Below are positions 2,904 to 64,000 of a DNA stretch of 64,000 nt, piece after piece. The stretch lies in the NCBI GenBank assembly GCA_050010075.1, contig JBEKLS010000002.1, positions 3,501-67,500 of the forward strand, written 5' to 3'. This DNA comes from Candidatus Binatus sp. (lineage in GTDB: Bacteria; Desulfobacterota; Binatia; Binatales; Binataceae). Position 1 is the first letter of the stretch. Each line of letters begins with the position of its first letter. Below the pieces are notes generated by a model. That model searched no databases and had not been told where the DNA came from. It was given only the letters and a program-made list of their open reading frames with translations. The position numbers and the translations under genes were made by a program.

Positions 2904-3389
2904 TTATCCGTCCTGGAGATCGAACGAGCCTTTCCCCAGTTTTTTGCCCGCTTTCCCGCAATTATGCATTCTAGCGCTCCCCATCATGATATTGATGCCG
3001 TCGACAACCTTGCCGCTCAACTTGATTTTGCACTTGGCACCGCCGCTCAGATAGGTGAGCGAGAACTTGACCTTGTTATTGGCTGCGACGCTTCCGGTGA
3101 ACGCCCCCTGGTCCTCGAGGTCGAAGGTCCAGGTGCCGCTCAATTTTCCCTTCACCTGATCGATACTCACGCTGGCGCTGATCGGCTCATCGGCGAATTC
3201 AATGTCGCCGGCGTAGTACGTAGACAGAGTCGGGATCTGTTTTTTGGAATCAGGCTGGGTGGCATCCGCTTGCGATTGTGCGATCCACGGATTGGCCAGC
3301 TCGTCGTCCTGCGCATGGGCAAGAGCAGCCGGGATAAAGGCGAGCACAACGAGGGCGGCAAGAATTCCGAAAATCGCGATCCTTTTCAT
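2904..3389 (-). CDS. small secreted protein, paralog B (unknown function)
   Basis: 161 aa. Signal peptide MKRIAIFGILAALVVLAFIPAALAHA, preceded by a GGAGGG Shine-Dalgarno motif (ggagggatcgaaATG). Collinear similarity to 2140..2622. Confidence 0.75.
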   Translation of the reverse strand: MKRIAIFGILAALVVLAFIPAALAHAQDDELANPWIAQSQADATQPDSKKQIPTLSTYYAGDIEFADEPISASVSIDQVKGKLSGTWTFDLEDQGAFTGSVAANNKVKFSLTYLSGGAKCKIKLSGKVVDGINIMMGSARMHNCGKAGKKLGKGSFDLQDG

Positions 3390-3516
3390 TTCGATCCCTC
3401 CTGCCCCCCGCGTGGCCGGCTAGAATCGCCTATAGGCTCGCTTAGTTCAACACCTCGGAGCGGTCTGACGGTGCAAGTCGATTGATCGGATTCGATCCCG
3501 GTTTTTTCGGCGGACG

Positions 3517-5451
3517 TTGCGGCTGCGCGGCGCTCCTGCTAAAGCGAAGAAAGGACGAAGGGGCAGGCAGGTGGAAGAAGCGGTCATACCGGGCGCGAAT
3601 CAGCGCCATTTCGGCGTTTCGGCCAAGCAGAAGCTTTATGAATTCCTGTGCTCGCGGCCAGCGGGCGCCGATGCGGGCGAGCTGATTGGATTGCTGCTGA
3701 GCGGGGTTGGTTCGGATCCCGAACTCGGTGCGCGGCTTGTTCGTCAACTGCTCGACGACGATCCCAATTTCATTTTCGATGCCGATACGGCGCAATGGCG
3801 GCTGGCGCAGAGCGATCGGCTGCGGGTCGCGCTCGATCAGGCCGAGTTCACGGTGGTCGATCTGGAAACGACGGGCGGCCGCGCGGGGCCGGGCACGATC
3901 ATCGAGATCGGCGCCTACCGAATGGTTGGTAAGCGGCTCACCGAAACTTTCTCGAAGCTGGTGCGGCCGCAGGGCGGCGTGGTGCCGCGCTTCATCACGG
4001 GGCTCACGTCCATAACGACCGAGATGATTCGCGGGGCGCCGCCTATCGAGCAGGTGCTGCCGGCGTTTCGCGAGTTCATCGGCGACCGCGTGATGGTCGC
4101 GCACAACGCGGCCTTCGACTTCGGGTTTCTCGACTTCGAATACCGGCGCATCTTTGGAATCGGCCTCGCCAATCCGGTGTTGTGCACGCTGCGGATGTCG
4201 CGCCGGTTCATGCCGTCGCTCAAGCGCCGGCGGCTCGACCTGCTCGCAGAGCACTTCGGACTTTCGATCGAAGGGCGGCATCGCGGTCTCGGCGACGCGC
4301 GGATGGCGGCCGAGCTGCTCTCGATTTTTCTCGAGATGGCGGAGCGGATGGGAATCACGCGGCTCGATCGCCTGCTCGACGACCATCATCGCGGACTTGC
4401 GGGCCGGAGGATCGAGCGTCACGTGCCGCCCGAAGAGATCGCGGCGCTGCCGCATGCGCCCGGCGTCTACCTGATGCGCAACGAGCGCGGCGATTTGCTC
4501 TACATCGGGAAGGCGCGGCGGCTCCGGGAGCGGGTAAGCTCATACTTCACGGCGTCGGTGAAGGCGAGGACGGCGGAGCTGATATCGCACGTTTACAAAA
4601 TCGAGACGCGGCCGGCGCGATCGCCGCTGGAGGCGGCGCTGGACGAGGCGCGGCTGATTCGCGAGCTGAAGCCGCCGTACAACAGGATGCTGAAGTCGGC
4701 TGCGCCCGCGTACTTCATCAAGGTCGACCTGATGGACGAGTTTCCGCGCGTGACGATTTCGACAAAGATGAGCGCGCGGCGCGGCGTGATGCATCTGGGG
4801 CCGTTCATCGGGCGGCGCGGCATCGAGCATTCGGTGCGCGCGCTGTCGAGAATCCTCGGGCTGCGCACTTGCGGCGGCAAGCTGGCGCCGCGCGAGGATT
4901 TTTCGCCATGCATTTACGGGCAGATGGGGCATTGCACGGCGCCGTGCAACGTCAGCATCGGCGAGGAGCGGTACGCGGAGCGAGTTCGGCGCGCGGTCGG
5001 ATTTCTGCGCGGGCGCAGCGGTCCGCTGCTGGGTGAGCTGGCGCGGGCGCGCGACCAGGCGGCGGCCGCGATGCGCTTCGAGGAGGCGGCGCGCTTTCGG
5101 CATCACCTGGAGGCGCTGACCACGCTGGCCCATCGCGCGACCCGTCTGAGTGAGGTCGTGACGGAGAACAATCTCGTGATCGTGACAGGCGAAGAGGCCG
5201 AGCGGGCGGCGCATGTGGTGCTGTCGGGACGGCTGGCGCTCACGCGGCGGCTGGAGAGTGACGAAGCCGCGGCCGAGACGGCCGCGTTCGTCGCGGAAAA
5301 CTACGAGCGATACAAGTTGAAGGCGGTCGTGCGCGGCGAGCTCGAAGAGATGACGATCGTCGCGCGATGGCTCCGGGAGCGCACGTCCGACGAGGGACGC
5401 CTCATCTACCTGAACGGGCCAAGGCTGGATCCCGCCGCGTTGTCCGGCTGA
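3517..5451 (+). CDS. DEDD (DnaQ-like) 3'-5' exonuclease fused to a GIY-YIG/UvrC-like nuclease domain
   Basis: 644 aa. Exo motifs VVDLETTGG, VAHNAAFDFGFL and HRGLGDA. GIY-YIG motif PGVYLMRNERGDLLYIGKARRLRERVSSYF...RLIRELKPPYN. Cys cluster CIYGQMGHCTAPC. Same architecture and size as the mycobacterial Rv2191-type proteins. The start codon is not verified. Confidence 0.85.
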   Translation: MRLRGAPAKAKKGRRGRQVEEAVIPGANQRHFGVSAKQKLYEFLCSRPAGADAGELIGLLLSGVGSDPELGARLVRQLLDDDPNFIFDADTAQWRLAQSDRLRVALDQAEFTVVDLETTGGRAGPGTIIEIGAYRMVGKRLTETFSKLVRPQGGVVPRFITGLTSITTEMIRGAPPIEQVLPAFREFIGDRVMVAHNAAFDFGFLDFEYRRIFGIGLANPVLCTLRMSRRFMPSLKRRRLDLLAEHFGLSIEGRHRGLGDARMAAELLSIFLEMAERMGITRLDRLLDDHHRGLAGRRIERHVPPEEIAALPHAPGVYLMRNERGDLLYIGKARRLRERVSSYFTASVKARTAELISHVYKIETRPARSPLEAALDEARLIRELKPPYNRMLKSAAPAYFIKVDLMDEFPRVTISTKMSARRGVMHLGPFIGRRGIEHSVRALSRILGLRTCGGKLAPREDFSPCIYGQMGHCTAPCNVSIGEERYAERVRRAVGFLRGRSGPLLGELARARDQAAAAMRFEEAARFRHHLEALTTLAHRATRLSEVVTENNLVIVTGEEAERAAHVVLSGRLALTRRLESDEAAAETAAFVAENYERYKLKAVVRGELEEMTIVARWLRERTSDEGRLIYLNGPRLDPAALSG

Positions 5452-56528: not shown

Positions 56529-57578
56529 TCAGTTTCGGTCCGGCGCGCTCATCGCGACGATCGCGTCCGCCATTTCCGCCGGTTCGATTTGAGTCAGGCA
56601 GTTGTAATGACCGAAGCGGCAAGTGCGCGCCAGGCATGGGCTGCATTCGAGCTTGCGATAAATCACGCGCGTCTTCGGCCCAAGCGGTCCGGTGCGATTC
56701 GGATTGGTCGAGCCGAAAATCGCGACGGTAGGGATTCCGAGCGCGCCCGCGATATGCATGCTGCCCGAGTCGTTGCCGATGAAGCCGTCGCACAGGGACA
56801 GCAGCGCGATCAGCTCGCCGATATTGGTGTGTCCCGCCGCGATCATCGCGCCGGCCTTGCTGGCAGCCGCGACCTGCTCGCAGACCGCGCGCTCGGACGG
56901 CGCGCCCACCAGCACGACCTCGGCGTCCTCGCGCCGCGCAATCAAATCGATCAGCGCGCCATACCTTTCCGCGGGCCACTCCTTGGCCGGTCCGTAGGCA
57001 GCGGCGGGAGCGATGGCAAATAGGCGACTGTCTGAACGCTTGCGATTCACCGCGAGCCACTCGCGCATCCGCTCGCGATGAGGCTCGTGCACATCGATCG
57101 CGAAATCATCGGCGGTGCCGGCGGCAACTCCGGTCCCGCGCACCATCGCGAGCCAGTACTTCACCTGATGCCCGTTCATCGCCTCGGGCGGCGGCGAGGC
57201 CTTTAGTGTCAGCATCGCGCCGCGCGCATCGGCGACAAATCCCGCGCGTCGCCGGATTCCCGCCATCGTGATCCACAGGGCCGACTCGAAACTGTTGGGG
57301 AACAACACTCCGAGATCGAATCGCCGCGAGCGAATCTCGCCGACGATCCGTCGCCGATCGAAAAAACCGGAAAGACCGCGCCCGACCGAGTATGGAATCA
57401 CCTCGTCGATCCAGCCGGCGCCGTCAAAGAAGTTTGCGAGCTCCTTTTTGACAAGCACGGCCAGATGCGCGTCAGGGTAGGTGCGCCGAATCGCAAGCAG
57501 CGCGGGCAGGCTCATCACGATATCGCCGAGCCAGTTAACTTCCTTGACGAGGATGCGCGCGGGCGGCGGCTCGAGCAT
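56529..57578 (-). CDS. waaF: ADP-heptose:LPS heptosyltransferase II (GT9)
   Basis: I start the gene at the ATG at 57578 (MLEPPPARILVKEVNWLGDIVMSLPAL...). FIGNDSGSMHIAGALGIPTVAIFGSTNP, and the C-terminal CSPCLARTCRFGHYNCL typical of WaaF. The 50-codon upstream extension is probably not translated. Confidence 0.85.
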   Translation of the reverse strand: MLEPPPARILVKEVNWLGDIVMSLPALLAIRRTYPDAHLAVLVKKELANFFDGAGWIDEVIPYSVGRGLSGFFDRRRIVGEIRSRRFDLGVLFPNSFESALWITMAGIRRRAGFVADARGAMLTLKASPPPEAMNGHQVKYWLAMVRGTGVAAGTADDFAIDVHEPHRERMREWLAVNRKRSDSRLFAIAPAAAYGPAKEWPAERYGALIDLIARREDAEVVLVGAPSERAVCEQVAAASKAGAMIAAGHTNIGELIALLSLCDGFIGNDSGSMHIAGALGIPTVAIFGSTNPNRTGPLGPKTRVIYRKLECSPCLARTCRFGHYNCLTQIEPAEMADAIVAMSAPDRN

Positions 57579-57736
57579 AACGGCGGGCGTCGTCGACGGC
57601 GCTGTGCGCGAATCGAGCTTGGCTTCGTGTCGGAAATTTTCGGATTCCACGATCAAGATTCCCGGCGATACCTGCGATGCCGCCGGCAAAGATTTCATCA
57701 CGCGAGCGTGTTCAAATAAACCCGGCAACTGGCAAG

Positions 57737-57772
57737 CAACCCAACCCCTTTCCGCGTGGGAAGGGGAACCGG
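57737..57772 (+). repeat. family R1 repeat, partial copy e
   Basis: caacccaacccctttccgcgtgggaaggggaaccgg, with hairpin CCCCTTTCC/GGGAAGGGG and the AACC(A/G)G tail. Confidence 0.7.
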
Positions 57773-57846
57773 TCGCGGAGATAATTTGCTTCCGCGTTGC
57801 GCGGGATCGTACTACTATCCGAGTCGCACGCGAGGGGATTGCTGCG

Positions 57847-59499
57847 ATGGCTGGTTTGAGAGATCGACCGCTGATGCGCGATGCGCTGCTCGCCGGTGGA
57901 GTGATCGCCGCGGGCGCGATTGCGGCGTTGATCGCACTCGATCACGGCGCGCCCCTCAGTTCTCATTTCAGTTCGGTGGTGTCGGCGCCTGTCCGTCCCG
58001 ACGCGCCGGCGGCGGGGTTGAAAACATCCCGCGCCGCGATCGATGCGCGCGGTGCCACTCACGCCGTCGCCAGCCCGCAACAAATCGGATTGGCGCCAAC
58101 TTCGGTGAAAAAGAAATCGAGCGGCCCGACTTTGGTACTGATGGTTCCGGATTTGCCGCCGCGCCAGAATCCTGTCGCGCCGAATTCCGGCATGTGGATC
58201 GAACAGGGCAGCGGTGGTCCTGTTACAGGCCCGAATCCTCAAGGTTCCGGGCCGATTGCGATGGGCGTGGTCGGTGGCGTCTCGGCTCCGCTGACTTCGC
58301 CGACGGGGCAGTCGCAACCGAGTTTTCCGGCTGCGCCTAAAGCTCCCGTAGTTGCATCAAGCTCTGCTCACACGGCAGCGTCGCACCCGGCGAGCCAATC
58401 AGCTGATACGACGACGCATGCCGGGTTCGTGCTGCTGGCGGGCGGCCACGGCGACGGCCAGTTCGCGCTCTCGAGCGCGGAGCTTTTCGATCCAGCCAGG
58501 AACGCATTCGCCGCCGCGCCGTCGATGAAGGATGCGCGCACGGATCACACGGCCACAGTATTGCCCAGCGGCAAAATTTTGGTCGCCGGCGGCGAAGGAC
58601 CCTCGGGTCGCGCTTTGTCGTCGGCTGAGCTGTACGATCCTGGCAGCGGAAAATTTTCCGCGGTCGCCTCGAAGATGGACACTGCGCGCGCCGAGCATAC
58701 CGCGACGTTGATTTCCGGATGCAACTGCGCCGCCGACGGACAGGTGTTAATCGCGGGCGGCACCACGGCGACGGGCTCGCTCGGCACCACGCTGAGGAGC
58801 GCGGAACTTTACGACCCCGCAACGGGAGTTTTCACGGCGACTGGCGCGATGAAGGCGACGCGCGCGGGACACACGGCGACGTTGCTCGCGAGCGGTCCGT
58901 TGGCGGGCAACGTGCTGATAGCAGGCGGCACCAGCGACGAGAGCGGCGGCGAAGTCGCGACGGCTGAGCTGTACGATCCGGTCGCCGGAGAGTTCACTTT
59001 GACGGGCAGGATGAGCACGCCGCGCAAAGGTCATAGCGCCACCTGGCTTTCGCCGACAGTTGTGACGGGCACCCTCGCGGGCAACGTGCTGGTGGCTGGC
59101 GGCGGTGACGTGAGTGCCCCGAACGACAGCGCGGAAGTTTTCAATCCGCAGACGGCGGGGTTTTCACCGGTGGGCGCGATGACCACGCCGCGTACGCTTC
59201 AATCGGCGGTGTTGCTGGACAGCGGCAAGGTGCTGATCGCAGGCGGTCAGAGCAGCGATTCGGATTTTCTGCTGAGCGCTGAGCTGTTCGACCCGGTGCA
59301 AGCCACCTTTGCCGCGACCGGCTCGATGCATAACGTCCACGCCGGCGCCACTGCAACTGTGCTCAACAGCGGCAGCGCGCTGGTCGCGGGTGGCAGATCG
59401 AGCTTCGCGGATCTCTACGACCCCACGGCGGGAACCTTCTCGGCTACGAGCAGCATGATCACCGACGTTGCCGAATCGACCTCGACGCTAATCAAGTAG
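57847..59499 (+). CDS. membrane-anchored Kelch-repeat beta-propeller protein
   Basis: ATG at 57847 after GAGGGG. TM anchor ALLAGGVIAAGAIAALIAL. A Pro/Ser-rich spacer. Six or seven Kelch units of the form AELYDPxxGxFxxxGxMxxxRxxHTATLLxxGxVLIAGG. Confidence 0.85.
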   Translation: MAGLRDRPLMRDALLAGGVIAAGAIAALIALDHGAPLSSHFSSVVSAPVRPDAPAAGLKTSRAAIDARGATHAVASPQQIGLAPTSVKKKSSGPTLVLMVPDLPPRQNPVAPNSGMWIEQGSGGPVTGPNPQGSGPIAMGVVGGVSAPLTSPTGQSQPSFPAAPKAPVVASSSAHTAASHPASQSADTTTHAGFVLLAGGHGDGQFALSSAELFDPARNAFAAAPSMKDARTDHTATVLPSGKILVAGGEGPSGRALSSAELYDPGSGKFSAVASKMDTARAEHTATLISGCNCAADGQVLIAGGTTATGSLGTTLRSAELYDPATGVFTATGAMKATRAGHTATLLASGPLAGNVLIAGGTSDESGGEVATAELYDPVAGEFTLTGRMSTPRKGHSATWLSPTVVTGTLAGNVLVAGGGDVSAPNDSAEVFNPQTAGFSPVGAMTTPRTLQSAVLLDSGKVLIAGGQSSDSDFLLSAELFDPVQATFAATGSMHNVHAGATATVLNSGSALVAGGRSSFADLYDPTAGTFSATSSMITDVAESTSTLIK

Positions 59500-59504
59500 C
59501 GGAA

Positions 59505-60026
59505 TTATTTCTTGAGCGCGGCGATTACGTCATTGACGATCGCATCGGCCTTCGCGCGCATCTGATCGTCGGTTGCGTCCTGAATCGGATGCGGTACGAA
59601 CACGCGGCGAAGCTCAGGCAACCCCAACGCCTCGGCCTGCCGCTCGGCGGCGTCGACGAACTCGTTGGACGCGATTACCACCGCGGGCTTCTTATTTATC
59701 TCGAACCATACGGAGTCGTGCACACTGCACGTGGTGCACGACCCTCAGTCGGCGAGCGCTTCAATAACGAAGTCGCACTCCTGCGCGATACGGCGGCGCA
59801 GGTCGTCGGGCGCCGGCTTGGTGAAGGTGGGTTTGCGAAAGCGCTTGAGCTCGATGCCCGGCAGGCGGTCCTGAAGATGCTCGGCGAGCCGGTCGATCAA
59901 CACGTTGCCGCGCGGCTTGGAGATGTCGAGCAGCCCGACGCGGCCGGCGATAGTGTCCGAGCGGGCGGCGAGCGTGCGTCGAATCGGCACGCGCTCGTCA
60001 GTCGGATCGATGATCACCTGTTTCAT
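59505..60026 (-). CDS. UGSC-family selenoprotein (in-frame TGA at 59745..59747 read as selenocysteine, residue 94 of 173)
   Basis: Track ORFs 59745..60083 and 59505..59723 are in the same frame and separated only by TGA plus 7 sense codons. The readthrough product is MKQVIIDPTDERV...QECDFVIEALAD-U-GSCTTCSVHDSVWFEINKKPAVVIASNEF...VIAALKK. The UGSC motif is the name-giving motif of that family. ATG 60026 follows GGAG and overlaps the upstream stop (ATGA). A hairpin starts directly 3' of the TGA. Confidence 0.8.
59713..59744 (-). promoter_or_regulatory. candidate bacterial SECIS hairpin for the UGSC gene
   Basis: The RNA after the UGA reads GGGUCGUGCAC-CACGUGCAGU-GUGCACGACUC. It forms an 11-bp stem (one G-U pair). 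The apical region can be refolded into a GUGCA loop that contains the GU typical of SelB-binding loops. Confidence 0.6.
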
Positions 60027-61624
60027 GCCGTCTCCTCGATTCGCCGGCTGACGCTCGACGATCCCATCGGACCCGAGACCCATCCGGCGAACACCGCCGA
60101 GAATTTTCCGGCGTTGCCGCCAGCCACGATGATATTGATATCCTCCGGCTTGCGAAACTTCGCAATCTTTTCCGCGAGCTGTTCTTCGGTCGGCGTGCCA
60201 AGTGCGCTCAGTGGAATTCCTTCTCCGCTATCGTCGTCGCGCAGCAATTCACGCAACGGGCGCGCCGTCACTTCCTGGATGCGCGCGCGCAAATTCGCCT
60301 TGGTCCATTTCTCGCGCGCCAGCGTGTCGGCATGCTCGGGACAAACGACGAGCAGAATCTCGCCGCTGTTGTGCGACTTGGGATGCCAGCATGCTTCGAG
60401 GCCCATGCCGAGACTGCCGCCGAGCGCGCGCGCCGTTCGCGAAGTTTGATCGGCAATCTGGCGCGAGCCCGCCTCCAGCCCGAACACGGTCACGACGCTT
60501 TCATCCTGCTTGAACCCGCGCTCGACGTGCAGCGGCTCCCACGGACTGCGCTCCTCCCACTCGGCGAAGCACGTCGTGAACTTGCCGGGCGCACCCAGCG
60601 TAGAGCGCTCGATCTCGCCCGGCCGCGCGCCGCCGACGTTGCGCAGCACGAGTTTCAGCGCGCGCCCGATGGTTGCGTTGGAACGCGTGCCGTAGCCGAG
60701 CGCCATCATGCCCATGTTCATGTCGAGACGATGGCGAATCGGACCGCTGACGACGATCACCGGCGTCGCGCCCCAGGTCGTGGACATGATGCCGTGGATG
60801 TTGAAGGTGTCGGTGCAGACCGCTTCGAGCGCCGCGATCACCACCGGCAGATACTCGGGCTTGCATCCGGCCATCACGGCGTTGACCGCGACTTTTTCGA
60901 CGCTGACGGGCGCAAGATTCGGCGGCACGATCGCAACGATGTCGCGCGGGTCGCGCCGCGTTCCCGTCAGCATCCACATCACGCGCTCGGGCGTCGGCGG
61001 CACCACAGGCAAACCGTCGGTGAGCCCGCGCTCGAACATGAATTCGAAGACGTCTTCGGCGTCGCCGAGTTCGATTCGACGCGCGGTCAGCTTGTCGCCG
61101 CGCGCGTTTGCTTCGAGGCGCTCAGCGATTCCAGGTTCGACCGATTTGGAACCGCATCCAGGGCGCGACTCAGGATATGAATTCCAATCGACGGACGGCG
61201 ATTGTAGTCCCGATTGCCGCGACAACTCGGCGAACATCTCGCGCCAATCGTCGCGTCCGAAACCGACGAAGCGCCGCTGCTCGTGGCCATGCGAGTCAGC
61301 GAGGATGATTGTCGGCACCGTGTCGAGGTCGTAGTTGAAGGAGACCGCGAGCGATGAATCGTCGAGCATCGGCGCCGAGAGCGCATAACGTTCGACGAGC
61401 TTCGCGTTGCCCTCGGCATCCTGGCCTACCACCCACACATCGATGGATGCACCGAAGGCGCGATGCGCGGCCTCGATCAGCGGCATCGTCATTGCGCAGG
61501 TCGGGCAATCTTCCTTGACGAAGCAGAGCAGGGCGGCGCGGGCAGACGGGAATGAACGCCCTGTGCCATGCGTATCGAGCAGCTCAAACGCTGGCAATGA
61601 ATTTGCCGGCGAATCTTTCATCAC
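60023..61624 (-). CDS. thioredoxin-fold (CPTC) domain fused to a ~380-aa conserved domain of unknown function
   Basis: 533 aa. The N-terminal TlpA/AhpC-like region is LPAFELLDTHGTGRSFPS...LLCFVKEDCPTCAMTMP...DTVPTIILADSHG. The remainder (GLTDGLPVVPPTPERV...VNAVMAGCKPEYLPVVIAALEA...GPIRHRLDMNMG...GRALKLVLRNVGGARPGEIERSTLGAPGKFTTCFAE) matched no named family I can recall. Confidence 0.75.
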   Translation of the reverse strand: MMKDSPANSLPAFELLDTHGTGRSFPSARAALLCFVKEDCPTCAMTMPLIEAAHRAFGASIDVWVVGQDAEGNAKLVERYALSAPMLDDSSLAVSFNYDLDTVPTIILADSHGHEQRRFVGFGRDDWREMFAELSRQSGLQSPSVDWNSYPESRPGCGSKSVEPGIAERLEANARGDKLTARRIELGDAEDVFEFMFERGLTDGLPVVPPTPERVMWMLTGTRRDPRDIVAIVPPNLAPVSVEKVAVNAVMAGCKPEYLPVVIAALEAVCTDTFNIHGIMSTTWGATPVIVVSGPIRHRLDMNMGMMALGYGTRSNATIGRALKLVLRNVGGARPGEIERSTLGAPGKFTTCFAEWEERSPWEPLHVERGFKQDESVVTVFGLEAGSRQIADQTSRTARALGGSLGMGLEACWHPKSHNSGEILLVVCPEHADTLAREKWTKANLRARIQEVTARPLRELLRDDDSGEGIPLSALGTPTEEQLAEKIAKFRKPEDINIIVAGGNAGKFSAVFAGWVSGPMGSSSVSRRIEETA

Positions 61625-62895
61625 TGCGACGGCGGAGGCAGGGGCGGAGCGGATGCGCTGGATTCCGGCACCATCAGAAATTGATTCTGCGTCGTCGAAT
61701 AAAACTCGACTGACGCTGTTACCAGCGCTCTCTCGGCGATGCCGCCGGCGACCAGCACCTCGCCGTCATTTAGCAGCGTTGCGGTGTTGGTGAGGCGTGC
61801 GACGTGGGTCGGGCCGACTTGCGAGAACAAATTCGTCTCGGGCATGAAGACTTCCGCGTCGCGCATCCCGACCACGATCGGCCCCTGGATGGTCCATCCG
61901 CCGACGACCAGTACGTTGCCATTGTCAAGCCTCGTCGCAGTCGCCAGGTAATGTGGCGCGGCCATGTTGCCGGTGGCGATGAAGCTGTTCGATTCGGGGT
62001 CGTAGATTTCCGCGGTGTTCAGCGGCGTCAGCGAAGCGATATTGGGAGCTCCCGACATCATGACTCTGCCGCTCTTGCCGCCGACGATCAGCACGCGGCC
62101 GTCGCTCAACCTGACCGCAGCCGCGCCGACGCGATCGCTCTTCATGTGCGCGAACATCGGCGAGAAGCTGCTGGTGCTCGGATTGTACATCTCGGCGGTG
62201 TCGTAAGAGATGTAGTTGCCCGGCATGCCGCCGCGGCCGCCGCCTGCGATCAGCACGTTGCCGGTGCCGAGCAGCGCGGCGACGTGCGCGACGCGCGGCT
62301 GATTCAAACTGCCGGTGAGGTTGAAGGTGCCGCTCGCAGGAAAGTAAATCTCGGCGGTGCCCAGCGTGTGGATGCCGTTGTCACTGCCGCCGACTATCAG
62401 CACGGTCCCGTCGCGCAGCATCGTTGCGGTATGCCCTTCGCGCGGCACGGACATCGAGCCGGTCGCGGTGAAGGTGCCGGCGCTCGGGTCATAGATTTCC
62501 GCACTGGCCAGCTCCGAGCGATAGCCGGCGTTCTGCACGCCGCCGGTCAGTAACACGCGTCCGTCGGACAGCATTGTGATAGTTTGCCCGGCGCGCGGGA
62601 CGGTCATCGAGCCGGTCGCGGCGAAGGATTGCGTTGCGGGATCGTAAAGCTCGGCGCTCGAGAGCACTCCCCCGACCTGGCCTGTCGCCGTGCCGCCGCA
62701 TATCAGCACGCGTCCGTCGCGCAGGCGAATCGCGGCGGCGTTGGCGCGCGGCGTGGTCATCGCGAGCGCGGCGACCTGGTTACCTTGCGGACTGGTCAGG
62801 AAGACGGGCGGCGCTTCGGAAATCCCGGAGCCTCCGCATCCGCTGAGTACAGCCGCGACGAGAAACGACAAGACAATGAGAAATCGGCGTTGCAT
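61621..62895 (-). CDS. Kelch-repeat lipoprotein
   Basis: ATG at 62895: MQRRFLIVLSFLVAAVLSGC, with lipobox LSGC. Seven or so Kelch units (AELYDPATQSFAATGSMTVPRAGQTITMLSDGRVLLTGG, and others). The stop overlaps the downstream gene's start (ATGA at 61621..61624). Confidence 0.85.
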   Translation of the reverse strand: MQRRFLIVLSFLVAAVLSGCGGSGISEAPPVFLTSPQGNQVAALAMTTPRANAAAIRLRDGRVLICGGTATGQVGGVLSSAELYDPATQSFAATGSMTVPRAGQTITMLSDGRVLLTGGVQNAGYRSELASAEIYDPSAGTFTATGSMSVPREGHTATMLRDGTVLIVGGSDNGIHTLGTAEIYFPASGTFNLTGSLNQPRVAHVAALLGTGNVLIAGGGRGGMPGNYISYDTAEMYNPSTSSFSPMFAHMKSDRVGAAAVRLSDGRVLIVGGKSGRVMMSGAPNIASLTPLNTAEIYDPESNSFIATGNMAAPHYLATATRLDNGNVLVVGGWTIQGPIVVGMRDAEVFMPETNLFSQVGPTHVARLTNTATLLNDGEVLVAGGIAERALVTASVEFYSTTQNQFLMVPESSASAPPLPPPSQ

Positions 62896-62934
62896 GCGCG
62901 CAAAATCATAGGCTTGCCGGGCCAAGATGGGAAG

Positions 62935-63519
62935 TTACTTATTCGGTGAACGAACGCCGTGGCGCAGCGCGTTCATCGTCGCGCGGACGAACATCGCGCC
63001 CGGCCATACGCCGCGCTTGCTCGGAGCCGTCGTGGTCCCGGCGCCGCCGCCAAGTTCGCGCACGAATGCGAGCAGTTCCTCGACGTTGACGCGCGACGCG
63101 ACGTCTTCCAACGCGCGGAAACGCACGACGCGATCGCGATCTATTACGAACGCTGCCGGGAAGGCGATGCCGCCTTTTTCTGCGCGGTTGAACAGGTCAT
63201 ACGCTTTGACGACTTCGCGGCTGGTGTCGCATAGCAGCGGAAATTTGAGGCCGAGTTCCTGGCGGACCGGCTCGGAGCGCGCGGCGTCATCAACCGAGAT
63301 TGCGACCAGTGCGGCTCCGGCTGCGCGAAATTCTTCGAAATGCTGCGAGTAGTCCGCCAACTGGCGAAGGCAGAACGGTCACCAATGGCCGCGATAGAAA
63401 ACGACGATGCACAATCCTCCAGCGATCAGATCATCGAGGCGGCGAATCGCGCCGGTCGAGTCGGCGAGCGTGAACTCAGGCGCGCGCTCGCCTACCGACG
63501 GAGTTTTGCGTTCGTCCAT
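62935..63519 (-). CDS. peroxiredoxin-like (AhpC/TSA-fold) selenoprotein, U-P-F-C active site (TGA at 63379..63381 read as selenocysteine, residue 47 of 194)
   Basis: The track ORF begins at an internal TTG (63360). Extending the same frame upstream through the TGA to ATG 63519 gives MDERKTPSVGERAPEFTLADSTGAIRRLDDLIAGGLCIVVFYRGHW-U-PFCLRQLADYSQHFEEFRAAGAALVAISVDD.... This restores the full N-terminal half of the Prx fold, with Sec exactly where the peroxidatic Cys sits in FYRGHWCP(F/Y)C homologues. Confidence 0.85.
63343..63373 (-). promoter_or_regulatory. candidate bacterial SECIS hairpin for the Prx-like gene
   Basis: The RNA reads UGA-CCGUU-CUGC-C-UUCGCC-AGUU-GGCGGA-CUACUC-GCAG. It has a 6-bp apical stem with a GU-containing tetraloop that begins about 10 nt after the UGA, closed by a 4-bp lower stem. 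Confidence 0.5.
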
Positions 63520-63545
63520 CGCTCAACAATAGCCGCGCCCGCGCC

Positions 63546-64000
63546 TCAGAGGAACATCGTTCCTTCGCCCACGATCACGCATCGCCCGCCGATGCGGATT
63601 GCGAACGCGCCGCTGTCCTTGCGCGCGACCTCGACGCGAATCTCGCTCGGCCGTCGCATTTCGACGCCTTGCTTGATGAGGAACGAAGTCCTGGGCGCGG
63701 GCTTTATCAATCCATACGTGGCGGCATACGCGCCGAACGGAGCTGCCGCGCTGCCGGTCGCCGGGTCTTCGGCAACTCCGGAGTGAGGCGCGAACATCCG
63801 CGAGCGAACCGCGAACTCGCCCGACCCGTTCGCGACGAACATATAGATGAGCAGCACCTGCTCGCCCGGTTTGAACAGCGACGCGATTGCCGGCGCGTTG
63901 GGCGCGCACTTCGCGAGCGCATCAAGCGTGCGCAGCGGAATAAAGATGAAGGGTACGCCGGTCGAGACGACCTGGATCGGCAGATCATCGCGAAGGTCCG
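63546..64000 (-). CDS. PhzF-family isomerase, N-terminus beyond window edge
   Basis: The frame is open from position 64000: ...DLRDDLPIQVVSTGVPFIFIPLRTLDALAKCAPN...LLIYMFVANGSGEFAVRSRMFAPHSGVAEDPATGSAAAPFGAY... The motif FAP..G..EDPATGSA is the PhzF/YHI9 signature. The track shows only the internal GTG-initiated part, 63546..63857. Confidence 0.85.
   Translation of the reverse strand, partial: DLRDDLPIQVVSTGVPFIFIPLRTLDALAKCAPNAPAIASLFKPGEQVLLIYMFVANGSGEFAVRSRMFAPHSGVAEDPATGSAAAPFGAYAATYGLIKPAPRTSFLIKQGVEMRRPSEIRVEVARKDSGAFAIRIGGRCVIVGEGTMFL

What the first reader, a model, noticed from the sequence alone, without database searches (positions are those of the whole stretch)
62935..63519. Hidden selenoprotein 2: peroxiredoxin-like protein with selenocysteine in a U-x-x-C redox motif
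The annotated 141-aa ORF starts at an internal TTG and lacks the entire N-terminal half of the thioredoxin/Prx fold, including the catalytic residue. The same frame continues upstream through the TGA at 63379..63381 to ATG 63519. That adds MDERKTPSVGERAPEFTLADSTGAIRRLDDLIAGGLCIVVFYRGHW-U-PFCLRQL. The motif FYRGHW[C/U]PFC is the canonical peroxidatic/resolving CxxC context of AhpC/TSA-type redoxins. A 6-bp stem with an AGUU loop begins about 10 nt after the UGA, which is the spacing expected for bacterial SECIS elements.
Basis: partly seen in the sequence, partly recalled or inferred. Interest (0 to 1): 0.8.

Follow-up and report, generated by a model that had tools for sequence, protein, structure and literature searches.

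The report
Hidden Prx-like selenoprotein gene (U-x-x-C)
The stop codon that seems to cut this redox-enzyme gene in two almost certainly encodes selenocysteine, so this is a real but mis-annotated selenoprotein of an already known predicted type, found here in the soil lineage Binatia.

Summary
On the minus strand, ATG 63519, TGA 63381-63379 and TAA 62937-62935 lie in one frame. Only the 194-codon read-through covers the whole AhpC/TSA profile. All 38 relatives in which the codon could be read (down to about 39% identity) keep TGA there, never TAA or TAG. The 46 upstream codons evolve as coding sequence (dN/dS 0.21). Full-length homologues carry Cys at that position. A 6-bp hairpin with an AGUU loop, 16 nt after the UGA, meets every published bacterial SECIS constraint and shows two compensatory base-pair changes. 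TGA is otherwise the commonest ordinary stop in the window. A second selenoprotein gene (UGSC family) lies 3 kb downstream in the same conserved gene cluster.

One correction: Sec47 does not occupy the peroxidatic position. It aligns with the Thr of the Prx T-x-x-Cp motif and with the nucleophilic Cys of thioredoxin-type W-C-x-x-C. Cys50 aligns with the peroxidatic Cys, and the Prx catalytic Arg is replaced by Pro121. The protein therefore belongs to the known, experimentally unverified "Prx-like thiol:disulfide oxidoreductase (PF00578, UxxC)" class.

I could not examine the Sec machinery (selA, selB, selC, selD), because none of it lies in the window.

The parts
62935..63519 (-). Complete selenoprotein coding sequence: 194 codons plus the TAA stop, with Sec at codon 47
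   Evidence: Single frame. Pfam AhpC-TSA 1-123/124 at 106.6 bits only when read through. Orthologues in 30 Binatia genomes match residues 1-194 (1-192 in L019).
63379..63381 (-). UGA codon 47, read as selenocysteine
   Evidence: TGA in the window and in all 38 relatives where the codon could be read, never TAA or TAG. Aligns with Cys in 9 full-length homologues.
63353..63368 (-). SECIS-type hairpin: 5' arm UUCGCC 63368-63363, loop AGUU 63362-63359, 3' arm GGCGGA 63358-63353
   Evidence: Codons 52-55 are invariant even at synonymous sites within the Binatia clade. All 108 cells pair; one pair shows CG/AU/GC and another CG/UG. Meets the loop, stem, spacing (16 nt) and energy (-8.0 kcal/mol) constraints of the published bSECIS model (PMC13188914).
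63358..63360 (-). TTG (Leu54) that gene callers take as the start of the 141-aa ORF. It straddles the hairpin loop and 3' arm.
   Evidence: At least 61 of 150 cluster representatives start at this same position.
63370..63372 (-). Cys50 codon: the resolving partner in U-x-x-C, at the position equivalent to the Prx peroxidatic Cys
   Evidence: Alignments to 2cx3, 5ovq and PRDX2.
63157..63159 (-). Pro121 codon: replaces the Prx catalytic Arg and aligns with the Pro of ResA's 'LPTTF' motif
   Evidence: Invariant in the clade and at least 90% conserved family-wide. In the model of the Cys homologue it immediately precedes a strand.
62938..63024 (-). Conserved basic C-terminal tail (residues 166-194, RGVWPGAMFVRATMNALRHGVRSPNK) beyond the Prx domain; role unknown
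   Evidence: Conserved across the family, including Cys homologues. dN/dS 0.26. Predicted helix 166-179 in the P0199 model, pLDDT about 75-81.
59505..60026 (-). Associated second selenoprotein gene of the same cluster: UGSC-family protein, 173 aa, Sec-UGA at 59747-59745, hairpin at about 59744-59712
   Evidence: NCBIfam NF041046 at 162.2 bits (cut-off 125) across the TGA. Hairpin -21.2 kcal/mol, z = -2.26. TGA conserved in L026.

Best explanation
The region 63519-62935 (minus strand) is one gene for a 194-residue cytoplasmic selenoprotein. UGA at codon 47 is recoded to selenocysteine by a small mRNA hairpin (6 bp, AGUU loop) that starts 10 nt downstream, within the coding sequence. This is the standard bacterial SelB/SECIS mechanism.

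The protein has a peroxiredoxin (AhpC/TSA, BCP/AhpE-like) scaffold but a thioredoxin-type active site: W-U47-P-F-C50 at the N-terminus of a helix, facing Pro121. Pro121 aligns with the Pro of ResA's 'LPTTF' motif, which I identify from my own knowledge as the thioredoxin-fold cis-Pro.

Inferred chemistry: the Sec47 selenolate is the attacking nucleophile. It forms a mixed Se-S or Se-O intermediate with the substrate, Cys50 resolves this to an intramolecular selenenylsulfide, and an upstream thiol reductant reduces it again. That makes it a thiol:disulfide-type oxidoreductase, not a classical Prx peroxidase.

Shown here: the single frame, the conserved TGA, coding selection on both sides, Cys homologues, the SECIS-like hairpin with compensatory changes, and the active-site residue correspondences.

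Inferred only: actual Sec insertion, the catalytic cycle, the substrate and the electron donor.
For: - **Fold spans the TGA:** Pfam AhpC-TSA 1-123/124, E = 1e-30, only with read-through.
- **Stop codon identity:** TGA in the window and 30 of 30 Binatia genomes, and in 8 more distant metagenomic relatives down to about 39% identity.
- **Database truncation:** the gene is split everywhere into pieces of about 46 aa and 141 aa. At least 61 of 150 representatives at 50% clustering start at the same false start, against 9 full-length Cys forms.
- **Coding selection:** dN/dS is 0.21 upstream and 0.13 downstream of the TGA, against 1.6-2.5 in the wrong frames.
- **Cys homologues:** they align with U47, for example P0199 FYRGHWCPFCLHQL.
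- **Hairpin:** invariant at synonymous sites in the clade. 108 of 108 cells pair, with compensatory CG to GC (L037) and CG to AU (L038) changes plus CG/UG wobble; no slid register exceeds 64% paired. All four bSECIS constraints are met (PMC13188914 Fig. 2).
- **TGA is a normal stop here:** it ends 16 of the 27 checked genes in the window, so the recoding is site-specific.
- **Second selenoprotein:** a UGSC-family gene above NCBIfam's curated cut-off lies in the same conserved cluster.
- **Active-site mapping:**
- **Structure:** the AF2 model of Cys homologue P0199 has pLDDT 92, and its closest solved folds are Bcp4, AhpE and AhpC.
Against: - No selA, selB, selD or tRNA-Sec lies in the window or in any fetched locus, and I could not search the rest of the genome.
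- Rfam has no match to the hairpin.
- The local folding energy is no better than shuffled sequence (z = +0.66). In the window's own variant the minimum-energy fold of the short stretch uses a different register.
- Covariation rests on a single base pair and two sequences.
- One relative (L036) has an AUUU loop, without the consensus G.
- No NCBIfam model reaches its curated cut-off, so family placement rests on Pfam and the motif.
- No experimental data exist for this or the reference family, which the review lists as 'predicted with high confidence' (PMC13188914).
- Because Sec is intrinsically reactive, peroxidase activity cannot be excluded from sequence.
Confidence: 0.88

Rival explanations
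1. The gene is the same selenoprotein, but it works as a peroxidase. Sec47 is oxidised by H2O2 or organic hydroperoxides to a selenenic acid, Cys50 resolves it to a selenenylsulfide, and a thioredoxin-like donor reduces it. This is GPx-like chemistry on a Prx scaffold.
For: The overall fold is closest to BCP/AhpE/AhpC peroxiredoxins, and the best NCBIfam and PDB sequence matches include peroxiredoxins. From general knowledge, Sec needs less activation than Cys. Cys50 sits exactly at the Prx peroxidatic position.
Against: Three of the four residues of the Prx catalytic set (Pro, Thr, Arg) are replaced: Arg43, Sec47 and Pro121. The motif and the Pro match thioredoxin/ResA-type oxidoreductases, and ResA aligns better than PRDX2 (63.5 against 52 bits). 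The literature separates TxxU 'Prx' selenoproteins from UxxC 'Prx-like thiol:disulfide oxidoreductases' (PMC2398784, PMC13188914).
Confidence: 0.3
2. The TGA is a genuine stop. Either the locus encodes a 46-aa peptide plus a separate 141-aa truncated redoxin started at TTG 63360, or it is a decaying pseudogene.
For: This is how gene callers and NCBI annotate it: a 141-aa 'peroxiredoxin' and a 46-aa 'hypothetical protein'. Sec machinery was not demonstrated.
Against: - A stop under no codon-identity constraint should drift among TGA, TAA and TAG over the 25-60% divergence sampled here, but it is TGA in the window and all 38 relatives.
- Both halves are under purifying selection in one frame.
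- The 141-aa product would lack the first strands of the fold and the whole active site.
- The TTG 'start' lies inside a conserved hairpin.
- Cys-containing full-length homologues exist.
Confidence: 0.03
3. UGA is read through by a general mechanism, either a reassigned genetic code (TGA read as Trp or Gly) or near-cognate suppression, and inserts a standard amino acid instead of Sec.
For: One database homologue (P0258) was translated with Trp at this position.
Against: TGA terminates 16 of the 27 checked genes in this window. Position 47 aligns with a redox-active Cys in homologues, where Trp or Gly would destroy the motif. A conserved SECIS-type hairpin follows at the canonical distance. P0258's 'W' is simply a TGA in the DNA (L038).
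Confidence: 0.02

Closest known systems
Prx-like thiol:disulfide oxidoreductase selenoprotein family (PF00578, UxxC/UxxU; representative WP_010940744.1 of Geobacter sulfurreducens; 'Prx-like 1' in the GOS selenoproteome)
   Same: It has a PF00578 domain, Sec as the first residue of a U-x-x-C motif, many Cys homologues and an in-ORF bacterial SECIS. The family is predicted only from genomes and is not biochemically characterised (PMC1794560, PMC2398784, PMC13188914).
   Different: It is found here in Binatia, soil MAGs that the selenoprotein papers I searched do not mention. It carries a conserved basic C-terminal tail and sits in a conserved cluster with a UGSC selenoprotein. I did not test direct similarity to WP_010940744.1.
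Selenocysteine-containing peroxiredoxin proper (Prx, T-x-x-U; NCBIfam NF040737 PrxU)
   Same: It shares the same Pfam domain and overall fold, and is a selenoprotein with a SECIS directly after the UGA.
   Different: In PrxU, Sec replaces the peroxidatic Cys (TxxU). Here Sec replaces the Thr three residues earlier (UxxC), and the Prx Pro and Arg are absent. The PrxU model scores 35.6 bits against a cut-off of 270.
ResA/TlpA/DsbE-type thioredoxin-fold thiol-disulfide oxidoreductases (W-C-x-x-C plus cis-Pro)
   Same: The W-[C/U]-x-x-C motif, the aligned Pro (P121 against ResA 'LPTTF') and a similar domain length. ResA is among the best PDB and NCBIfam sequence matches.
   Different: It has no N-terminal signal peptide or membrane anchor (by inspection of residues 1-25), so it is probably cytoplasmic. 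It carries Sec in place of Cys. The fold search prefers BCP/AhpE peroxiredoxins. The ResA model scores 54.2 bits against a cut-off of 170.
SelL-related redox proteins (NCBIfam NF040769)
   Same: It is a Prx-like thioredoxin-fold protein with a redox pair at the CxxC position, and gives a weak profile match (48.6 bits).
   Different: The score is far below the cut-off of 120 and covers only residues 12-109.

Membership tests
Bacterial selenoprotein gene (Sec-UGA recoding) | In-frame UGA conserved among orthologues, with homology continuing on both sides | tested here: met
   TGA in the window and all 38 relatives where the codon could be read. The flanks FYRGHW / PFCLRQLADYS are invariant in the clade. 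dN/dS is 0.21 upstream and 0.13 downstream.
Bacterial selenoprotein gene (Sec-UGA recoding) | Homologues with Cys aligned to the UGA position | tested here: met
   Nine full-length representatives have Cys there, for example P0199, P0254 and P0296.
Bacterial selenoprotein gene (Sec-UGA recoding) | bSECIS hairpin: 3-9 nt loop, 4-16 bp stem, G in the first two loop positions, 16-37 nt from the UGA, MFE at or below -7.5 kcal/mol | tested here: met
   AGUU loop, 6-7 bp stem, 16-nt spacing, -8.0 to -11.2 kcal/mol. 100% pairing with compensatory changes. Exception: L036 has an AUUU loop.
Bacterial selenoprotein gene (Sec-UGA recoding) | Genome encodes selA, selB, selC (tRNA-Sec) and selD | not testable with these tools
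Indirect support comes from the second selenoprotein gene (UGSC).
Bacterial selenoprotein gene (Sec-UGA recoding) | Selenium demonstrated in the protein | not testable with these tools
   This needs 75Se labelling or mass spectrometry.
Prx-like thiol:disulfide oxidoreductase selenoproteins (PF00578, UxxC) | PF00578 (AhpC/TSA) domain above the gathering score | tested here: met
   106.6 bits against 26, covering profile positions 1-123 of 124.
Prx-like thiol:disulfide oxidoreductases selenoproteins (PF00578, UxxC) | Sec as the first residue of a U-x-x-C motif at the thioredoxin CxxC position | tested here: met
   W-U47-P-F-C50 aligns with ResA C74/C77.
Prx-like thiol:disulfide oxidoreductase selenoproteins (PF00578, UxxC) | Specific relatedness to the reference sequence WP_010940744.1 | not tested
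Peroxiredoxin proper / Sec-peroxiredoxin (TxxU) | P-x-x-x-T/S-x-x-Cp motif, with Sec or Cys at the Cp position preceded by Thr/Ser | tested here: not met
   The Pro is Arg43. The Thr/Ser position is U47. Cp is C50, which is Cys and not Sec.
Peroxiredoxin proper / Sec-peroxiredoxin (TxxU) | Conserved catalytic Arg (PRDX2 Arg127) | tested here: not met
   It aligns with the invariant Pro121.
Peroxiredoxin proper / Sec-peroxiredoxin (TxxU) | NCBIfam equivalog scores (PrxU NF040737, BCP PRK09437, AhpC TIGR03137) | tested here: not met
   35.6 against 270, 36.0 against 140 and 36.2 against 272 bits.
ResA/TlpA-type extracytoplasmic thiol-disulfide oxidoreductases | W-C-x-x-C motif and the Pro opposite the active site | tested here: met
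   Only the sequence position was tested. The cis conformation of the Pro could not be checked because no model coordinates were available.
ResA/TlpA-type extracytoplasmic thiol-disulfide oxidoreductases | N-terminal membrane anchor or signal peptide, and a family-model score above cut-off | tested here: not met
   The N-terminus MDERKTPSVGERAPEF is hydrophilic and is already part of the domain. The ResA model scores 54.2 bits against a cut-off of 170.

The most novel reading that the evidence does not exclude
The Prx-like selenoprotein is the first gene of a conserved Binatia gene cluster. The order is Prx-like(Sec), Kelch-repeat lipoprotein, a 533-aa protein with an N-terminal CPTC thioredoxin-like domain and an uncharacterised C-terminal region of about 400 aa, and a UGSC(Sec) protein that is translationally coupled to it. 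Together these would form a previously undescribed redox relay that depends on two selenoproteins, in an aerobic soil phylum. That would also give the orphan UGSC family its first functional context.
Probability: 0.25. Interest if true: 0.55.

Novelty: new member of a known kind. Interest (0 to 1): 0.3.

Why it matters
In practice, this gene and hundreds of relatives are split in public databases into a 46-aa "hypothetical protein" and a truncated 141-aa "peroxiredoxin". The conserved TTG inside the SECIS loop acts as a false start, and no NCBIfam model rescues the gene. Binatia and other soil lineages are therefore under-counted as selenium users.

Biologically, it shows two selenoproteins side by side in a lineage that also encodes pyruvate dehydrogenase and a cytochrome P450 in this window. 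This adds to the evidence that UxxC thioredoxin-fold selenoproteins are common outside anaerobes.

It does not reveal a new mechanism. The recoding signal and the protein class are both of known types.

Tried and rejected
- **Rfam:** the gathering-threshold scan of the whole window and the permissive scan of 63250-63450 found nothing. Rfam did not recognise this hairpin.
- **Thermodynamic test:** for the 65 nt after the UGA, z = +0.66, which is uninformative. I relied on comparative evidence instead.
- I worked around this with the window's 141-aa ORF and with the Cys homologue P0199.
- **Sec machinery:** no tRNA in the window or in 34 loci. None of the ORFs tested, which include every ORF long enough to encode SelA, SelB or SelD, matched them. 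The AIRS-domain gene next to the homologue in L037 sits between purF-like and purN-like genes, so I took it to be purM and not selD.
- **Literature:** no paper combines Binatia with selenocysteine. The 10 Binatota papers containing 'selen*' are, judged by title and abstract, not about selenoproteins.
- **N-terminal query for close Cys forms:** it returned only fragments of about 46 aa ending at the TGA.
- **Pseudogene reading considered and rejected:** L027-L030 do carry downstream frameshifts. They lie at different places in each and contrast with 26 intact orthologues, so they look like assembly indel errors.

Full report
**1. The observation**

Reading the minus strand, ATG 63519 opens a frame that passes through TGA 63381-63379 (codon 47) and ends at TAA 62937-62935. 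The ORF that mechanical gene calling reports (62935-63360, 141 aa) starts at a TTG in the same frame, 18 nt after the TGA.

With Sec written as Cys, the 194-residue product matches Pfam AhpC-TSA over profile positions 1-123 of 124 (106.6 bits, E = 1e-30). The 141-aa ORF alone begins at profile position 45. The 46-aa upstream piece alone covers positions 1-37. The domain therefore spans the stop codon.

**2. Is the TGA real and conserved?**

- A protein search returned 541 relatives, and the best 120 were all about 141 aa and covered the same 73% of the query. A search with the N-terminal part returned only fragments of about 46 aa ending at the same place. The gene is thus split in the same way throughout the public databases.
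- A genome scan gave 30 loci, all from Binatia/Binataceae MAGs apart from one labelled Acidiferrales, and tblastn matched residues 1-194 across the stop in all but L019 (1-192).
- The codon is TGA in 31 of 31 sequences, inside an invariant FYRGHW-*-PFCLRQLADYS context.
- Eight more distant metagenomic relatives (L031-L038, down to about 39% identity) also have TGA. In L032 and L035 the contig ends just upstream, but the TGA itself is present.
- Pairwise dN/dS is 0.21 for codons 2-46 and 0.13 for codons 48-140. The same upstream DNA read in the other two frames gives 1.6 and 2.5.
- TGA is not a sense codon in this organism, because it terminates 16 of the 27 genes checked in the window.

**3. 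Cys homologues**

An exhaustive search with the window's 141-aa ORF against 1.84 billion cluster representatives found 842 relatives. Of the best 150:
- at least 61 begin exactly at the same false start;
- nine are full-length with Cys at the Sec position, for example P0199 FYRGHWCPFCLHQL and P0254 FYRGLWCPFCLTQL;
- two have Ser or Ala there, and one (P0211, 'L') looks like a spurious motif match;
- one has 'W', and its DNA (L038) shows a TGA, so it was translated under another genetic code.

This satisfies the classic Sec/Cys-pair criterion. It also shows that the putative Sec forms outnumber the Cys forms among the nearest relatives.

**4. The recoding signal**

- *Geometry.* After the UGA come 10 unpaired nt, then UUCGCC / AGUU / GGCGGA (63368-63353).
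- *Conservation.* Within the Binatia clade, codons 52-55 (CGC CAG TTG GCG) show no variation even at third positions, which is the only such run in the first 110 codons. Neighbouring codons vary synonymously.
- *Pairing.* Across 18 distinct sequences, all 108 cells of the six pairs form standard pairs. One pair is CG in 16 sequences, GC in L037 and AU in L038. In both exceptions the 3' change is a synonymous third-base change of the Ala codon. Another pair alternates between CG and UG. Sliding the 3' arm by 1-3 nt gives at most 64% pairing.
- *Fit to the published model.* The bSECIS model requires a 3-9 nt loop, a 4-16 bp stem, a G in the first two loop positions (usually followed by G or U), 16-37 nt between the UGA and the loop, and an MFE at or below -7.5 kcal/mol (PMC13188914). 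This hairpin has a 4-nt AGUU loop, a 6-7 bp stem, exactly 16 nt of spacing, and -8.0 (window) to -11.2 kcal/mol.
- *Caveats.* The folding energy of the 65-nt stretch is unremarkable (z = +0.66). Rfam finds nothing. Covariation rests on one pair. L036 has an AUUU loop.
- *Source of the mis-annotation.* The TTG that gene callers use as a start straddles the hairpin loop and 3' arm, which explains why the truncated annotation is so consistent.

**5. What kind of protein is it?**

The alignments show otherwise.
- Against Aeropyrum BCP (2cx3) and Aquifex AhpC2 (5ovq), U47 aligns with the Ser/Thr of the T/S-x-x-Cp motif and C50 aligns with the peroxidatic Cys.
- Against human PRDX2, Thr48 aligns with U47, Cys51 with C50, and the catalytic Arg127 with Pro121. 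The Prx Pro of 'FYP' is Arg43 here.
- Against B. subtilis ResA, Cys74 aligns with U47, Cys77 with C50, and the Pro of 'LPTTF' with Pro121. The score is slightly higher than for PRDX2, at 63.5 against 52 bits. The ResA segment agrees with the PDB ResA chains aligned.
- Pro121 is invariant in the clade and at least 90% conserved family-wide.
- An AlphaFold model of Cys homologue P0199 (pLDDT 92) puts the first Cys immediately before a helix and the Pro immediately before a strand. From my own knowledge, this is the usual thioredoxin CxxC and cis-Pro arrangement.
- The overall fold is nevertheless closest to the BCP/AhpE/AhpC peroxiredoxins.
- No NCBIfam model reaches its curated cut-off: putative Prx 53.9 against 261, ResA 54.2 against 170, SelL-related 48.6 against 120, and PrxU 35.6 against 270.

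The protein therefore has a Prx scaffold with a thioredoxin-type W-U-x-x-C centre. The inferred mechanism is nucleophilic attack by the Sec47 selenolate, resolution by Cys50 to a selenenylsulfide, and re-reduction by an unknown thiol donor. A GPx-like peroxidase activity of Sec47 cannot be excluded from sequence, and I keep it as the main functional rival (0.3). The hydrophilic N-terminus, which is already part of the domain, argues for a cytoplasmic location.

**6. Comparison with what is known**

The selenoproteome literature separates two classes. 'Prx' (pfam00578, TxxU) has Sec as the peroxidatic residue. 'Prx-like thiol:disulfide oxidoreductase' or 'Prx-like 1' (pfam00578, UxxC) was first predicted in Geobacter, Syntrophus and Desulfotalea and is abundant in ocean metagenomes (PMC1794560, PMC2398784). 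The 2026 review lists it as 'predicted with high confidence', with representative WP_010940744.1, and not as experimentally verified (PMC13188914).

The present gene meets the two defining features I could test, the PF00578 domain and the UxxC motif, and fails the defining features of Prx proper. I could not compare it directly with WP_010940744.1.

What is new here:
- the host lineage, since no paper combines Binatia with selenocysteine, and the 10 Binatota papers containing 'selen*' are, by title and abstract, not about selenoproteins;
- a conserved basic C-terminal tail;
- the gene neighbourhood.

I rate it as a new member of a known kind.

**7. Sec machinery and indirect support**

The window contains no tRNA. 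None of the ORFs tested, which include every ORF long enough to be SelA, SelB or SelD, matched them. The fetched loci have no tRNA-Sec.

A scan of the window for other TGA read-through candidates did find a second selenoprotein gene 3 kb downstream on the same strand. It runs from ATG 60026 through TGA 59747-59745 to TAA 59505, with the motif ALAD-U-GSC. It scores 162.2 bits against NCBIfam NF041046 'UGSC family (seleno)protein' (cut-off 125) across the TGA. A strong hairpin follows it (-21.2 kcal/mol, z = -2.26), and the TGA is conserved in L026. Two independently recognisable selenoprotein genes in one cluster make a Sec-decoding host very likely.

**8. Context**

The gene order is PhzF-like, Prx-like(Sec), Kelch-repeat lipoprotein (434 aa), a 533-aa protein with an N-terminal AhpC/TSA-like CPTC domain, and UGSC(Sec). 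All are on the minus strand with very short or overlapping junctions. The order is conserved in most of the 30 Binatia genomes. In L034 (46% identity) the order Prx-like, Kelch, 533-aa protein recurs, with two small genes between the last two. Whether these genes work together is untested. That possibility is the most novel reading that remains open.

**9. Verdict**

Two qualifications apply. Sec occupies the thioredoxin-type nucleophile position and not the peroxidatic one. The class is already known from computational selenoproteomics. Interest is modest (0.3).

Noticed in passing
window 59505-60026 (-), TGA at 59745-59747: A second hidden selenoprotein gene: a UGSC-family protein of 173 aa with the motif ALAD-U-GSC-TTC. 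It passes NCBIfam NF041046's curated cut-off (162 against 125 bits), a strong hairpin follows the UGA directly, and the TGA is conserved in L026.
   Followed up: partly
window 60023-61624 (-): A 533-aa protein with an N-terminal AhpC/TSA-like domain carrying a CPTC motif. About 400 further residues have no Pfam, NCBIfam or PDB sequence match. It is the best-conserved gene of the cluster (82-96%, mostly about 89%, identity across Binatia). Its TGA stop overlaps the ATG of the UGSC gene (ATGA), which suggests translational coupling.
   Followed up: partly
window 59505-63998 (-); loci L001-L030, L034: The gene order PhzF-like, Prx-like(Sec), Kelch lipoprotein, 533-aa Trx-like fusion, UGSC(Sec) is conserved in most Binatia genomes. 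The first three cluster genes recur in L034, a relative only 46% identical. In L026 the Kelch gene is missing but the other three stay adjacent.
   Followed up: partly
window 62938-63024 (-), residues 166-194: A conserved basic C-terminal tail (P..MF.RA..N..R.G.R.P) lies beyond the Prx domain. It is present in both Sec and Cys members of the family, is predicted helical and is under purifying selection (dN/dS 0.26). Its function is unknown.
   Followed up: partly
window 63358-63360 (-): The TTG for Leu54, invariant because it forms part of the SECIS loop and stem, is picked as a start codon by gene callers. At least 61 of 150 cluster representatives begin there, which is a systematic annotation artefact.
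   Followed up: yes
L027, L028, L029, L030 (matches at about 3001-3587): Four orthologues carry frameshifts downstream of the Sec codon, at different places in each. They are probably assembly indel errors and not pseudogenes.
   Followed up: no
L038 26-679 (protein P0258): A database homologue reads 'HWWPFC'. The DNA has TGA there, so the gene was called under a genetic code in which TGA means Trp. This is another way in which Sec genes get masked.
   Followed up: yes
L010 (DATNLS010000103.1): One locus with a 79% identical orthologue and the same synteny is labelled 'Candidatus Acidiferrales', while all the others are Binatia. It may be a mis-binned contig or a case of transfer.
   Followed up: no
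window 57481-59499 (+) and 61621-62925 (-): Two Kelch-repeat proteins with weak similarity to radical copper oxidase GlxA and glyoxal oxidase flank the redox genes. The minus-strand one has a lipoprotein-type signal (…LSGC).
   Followed up: no
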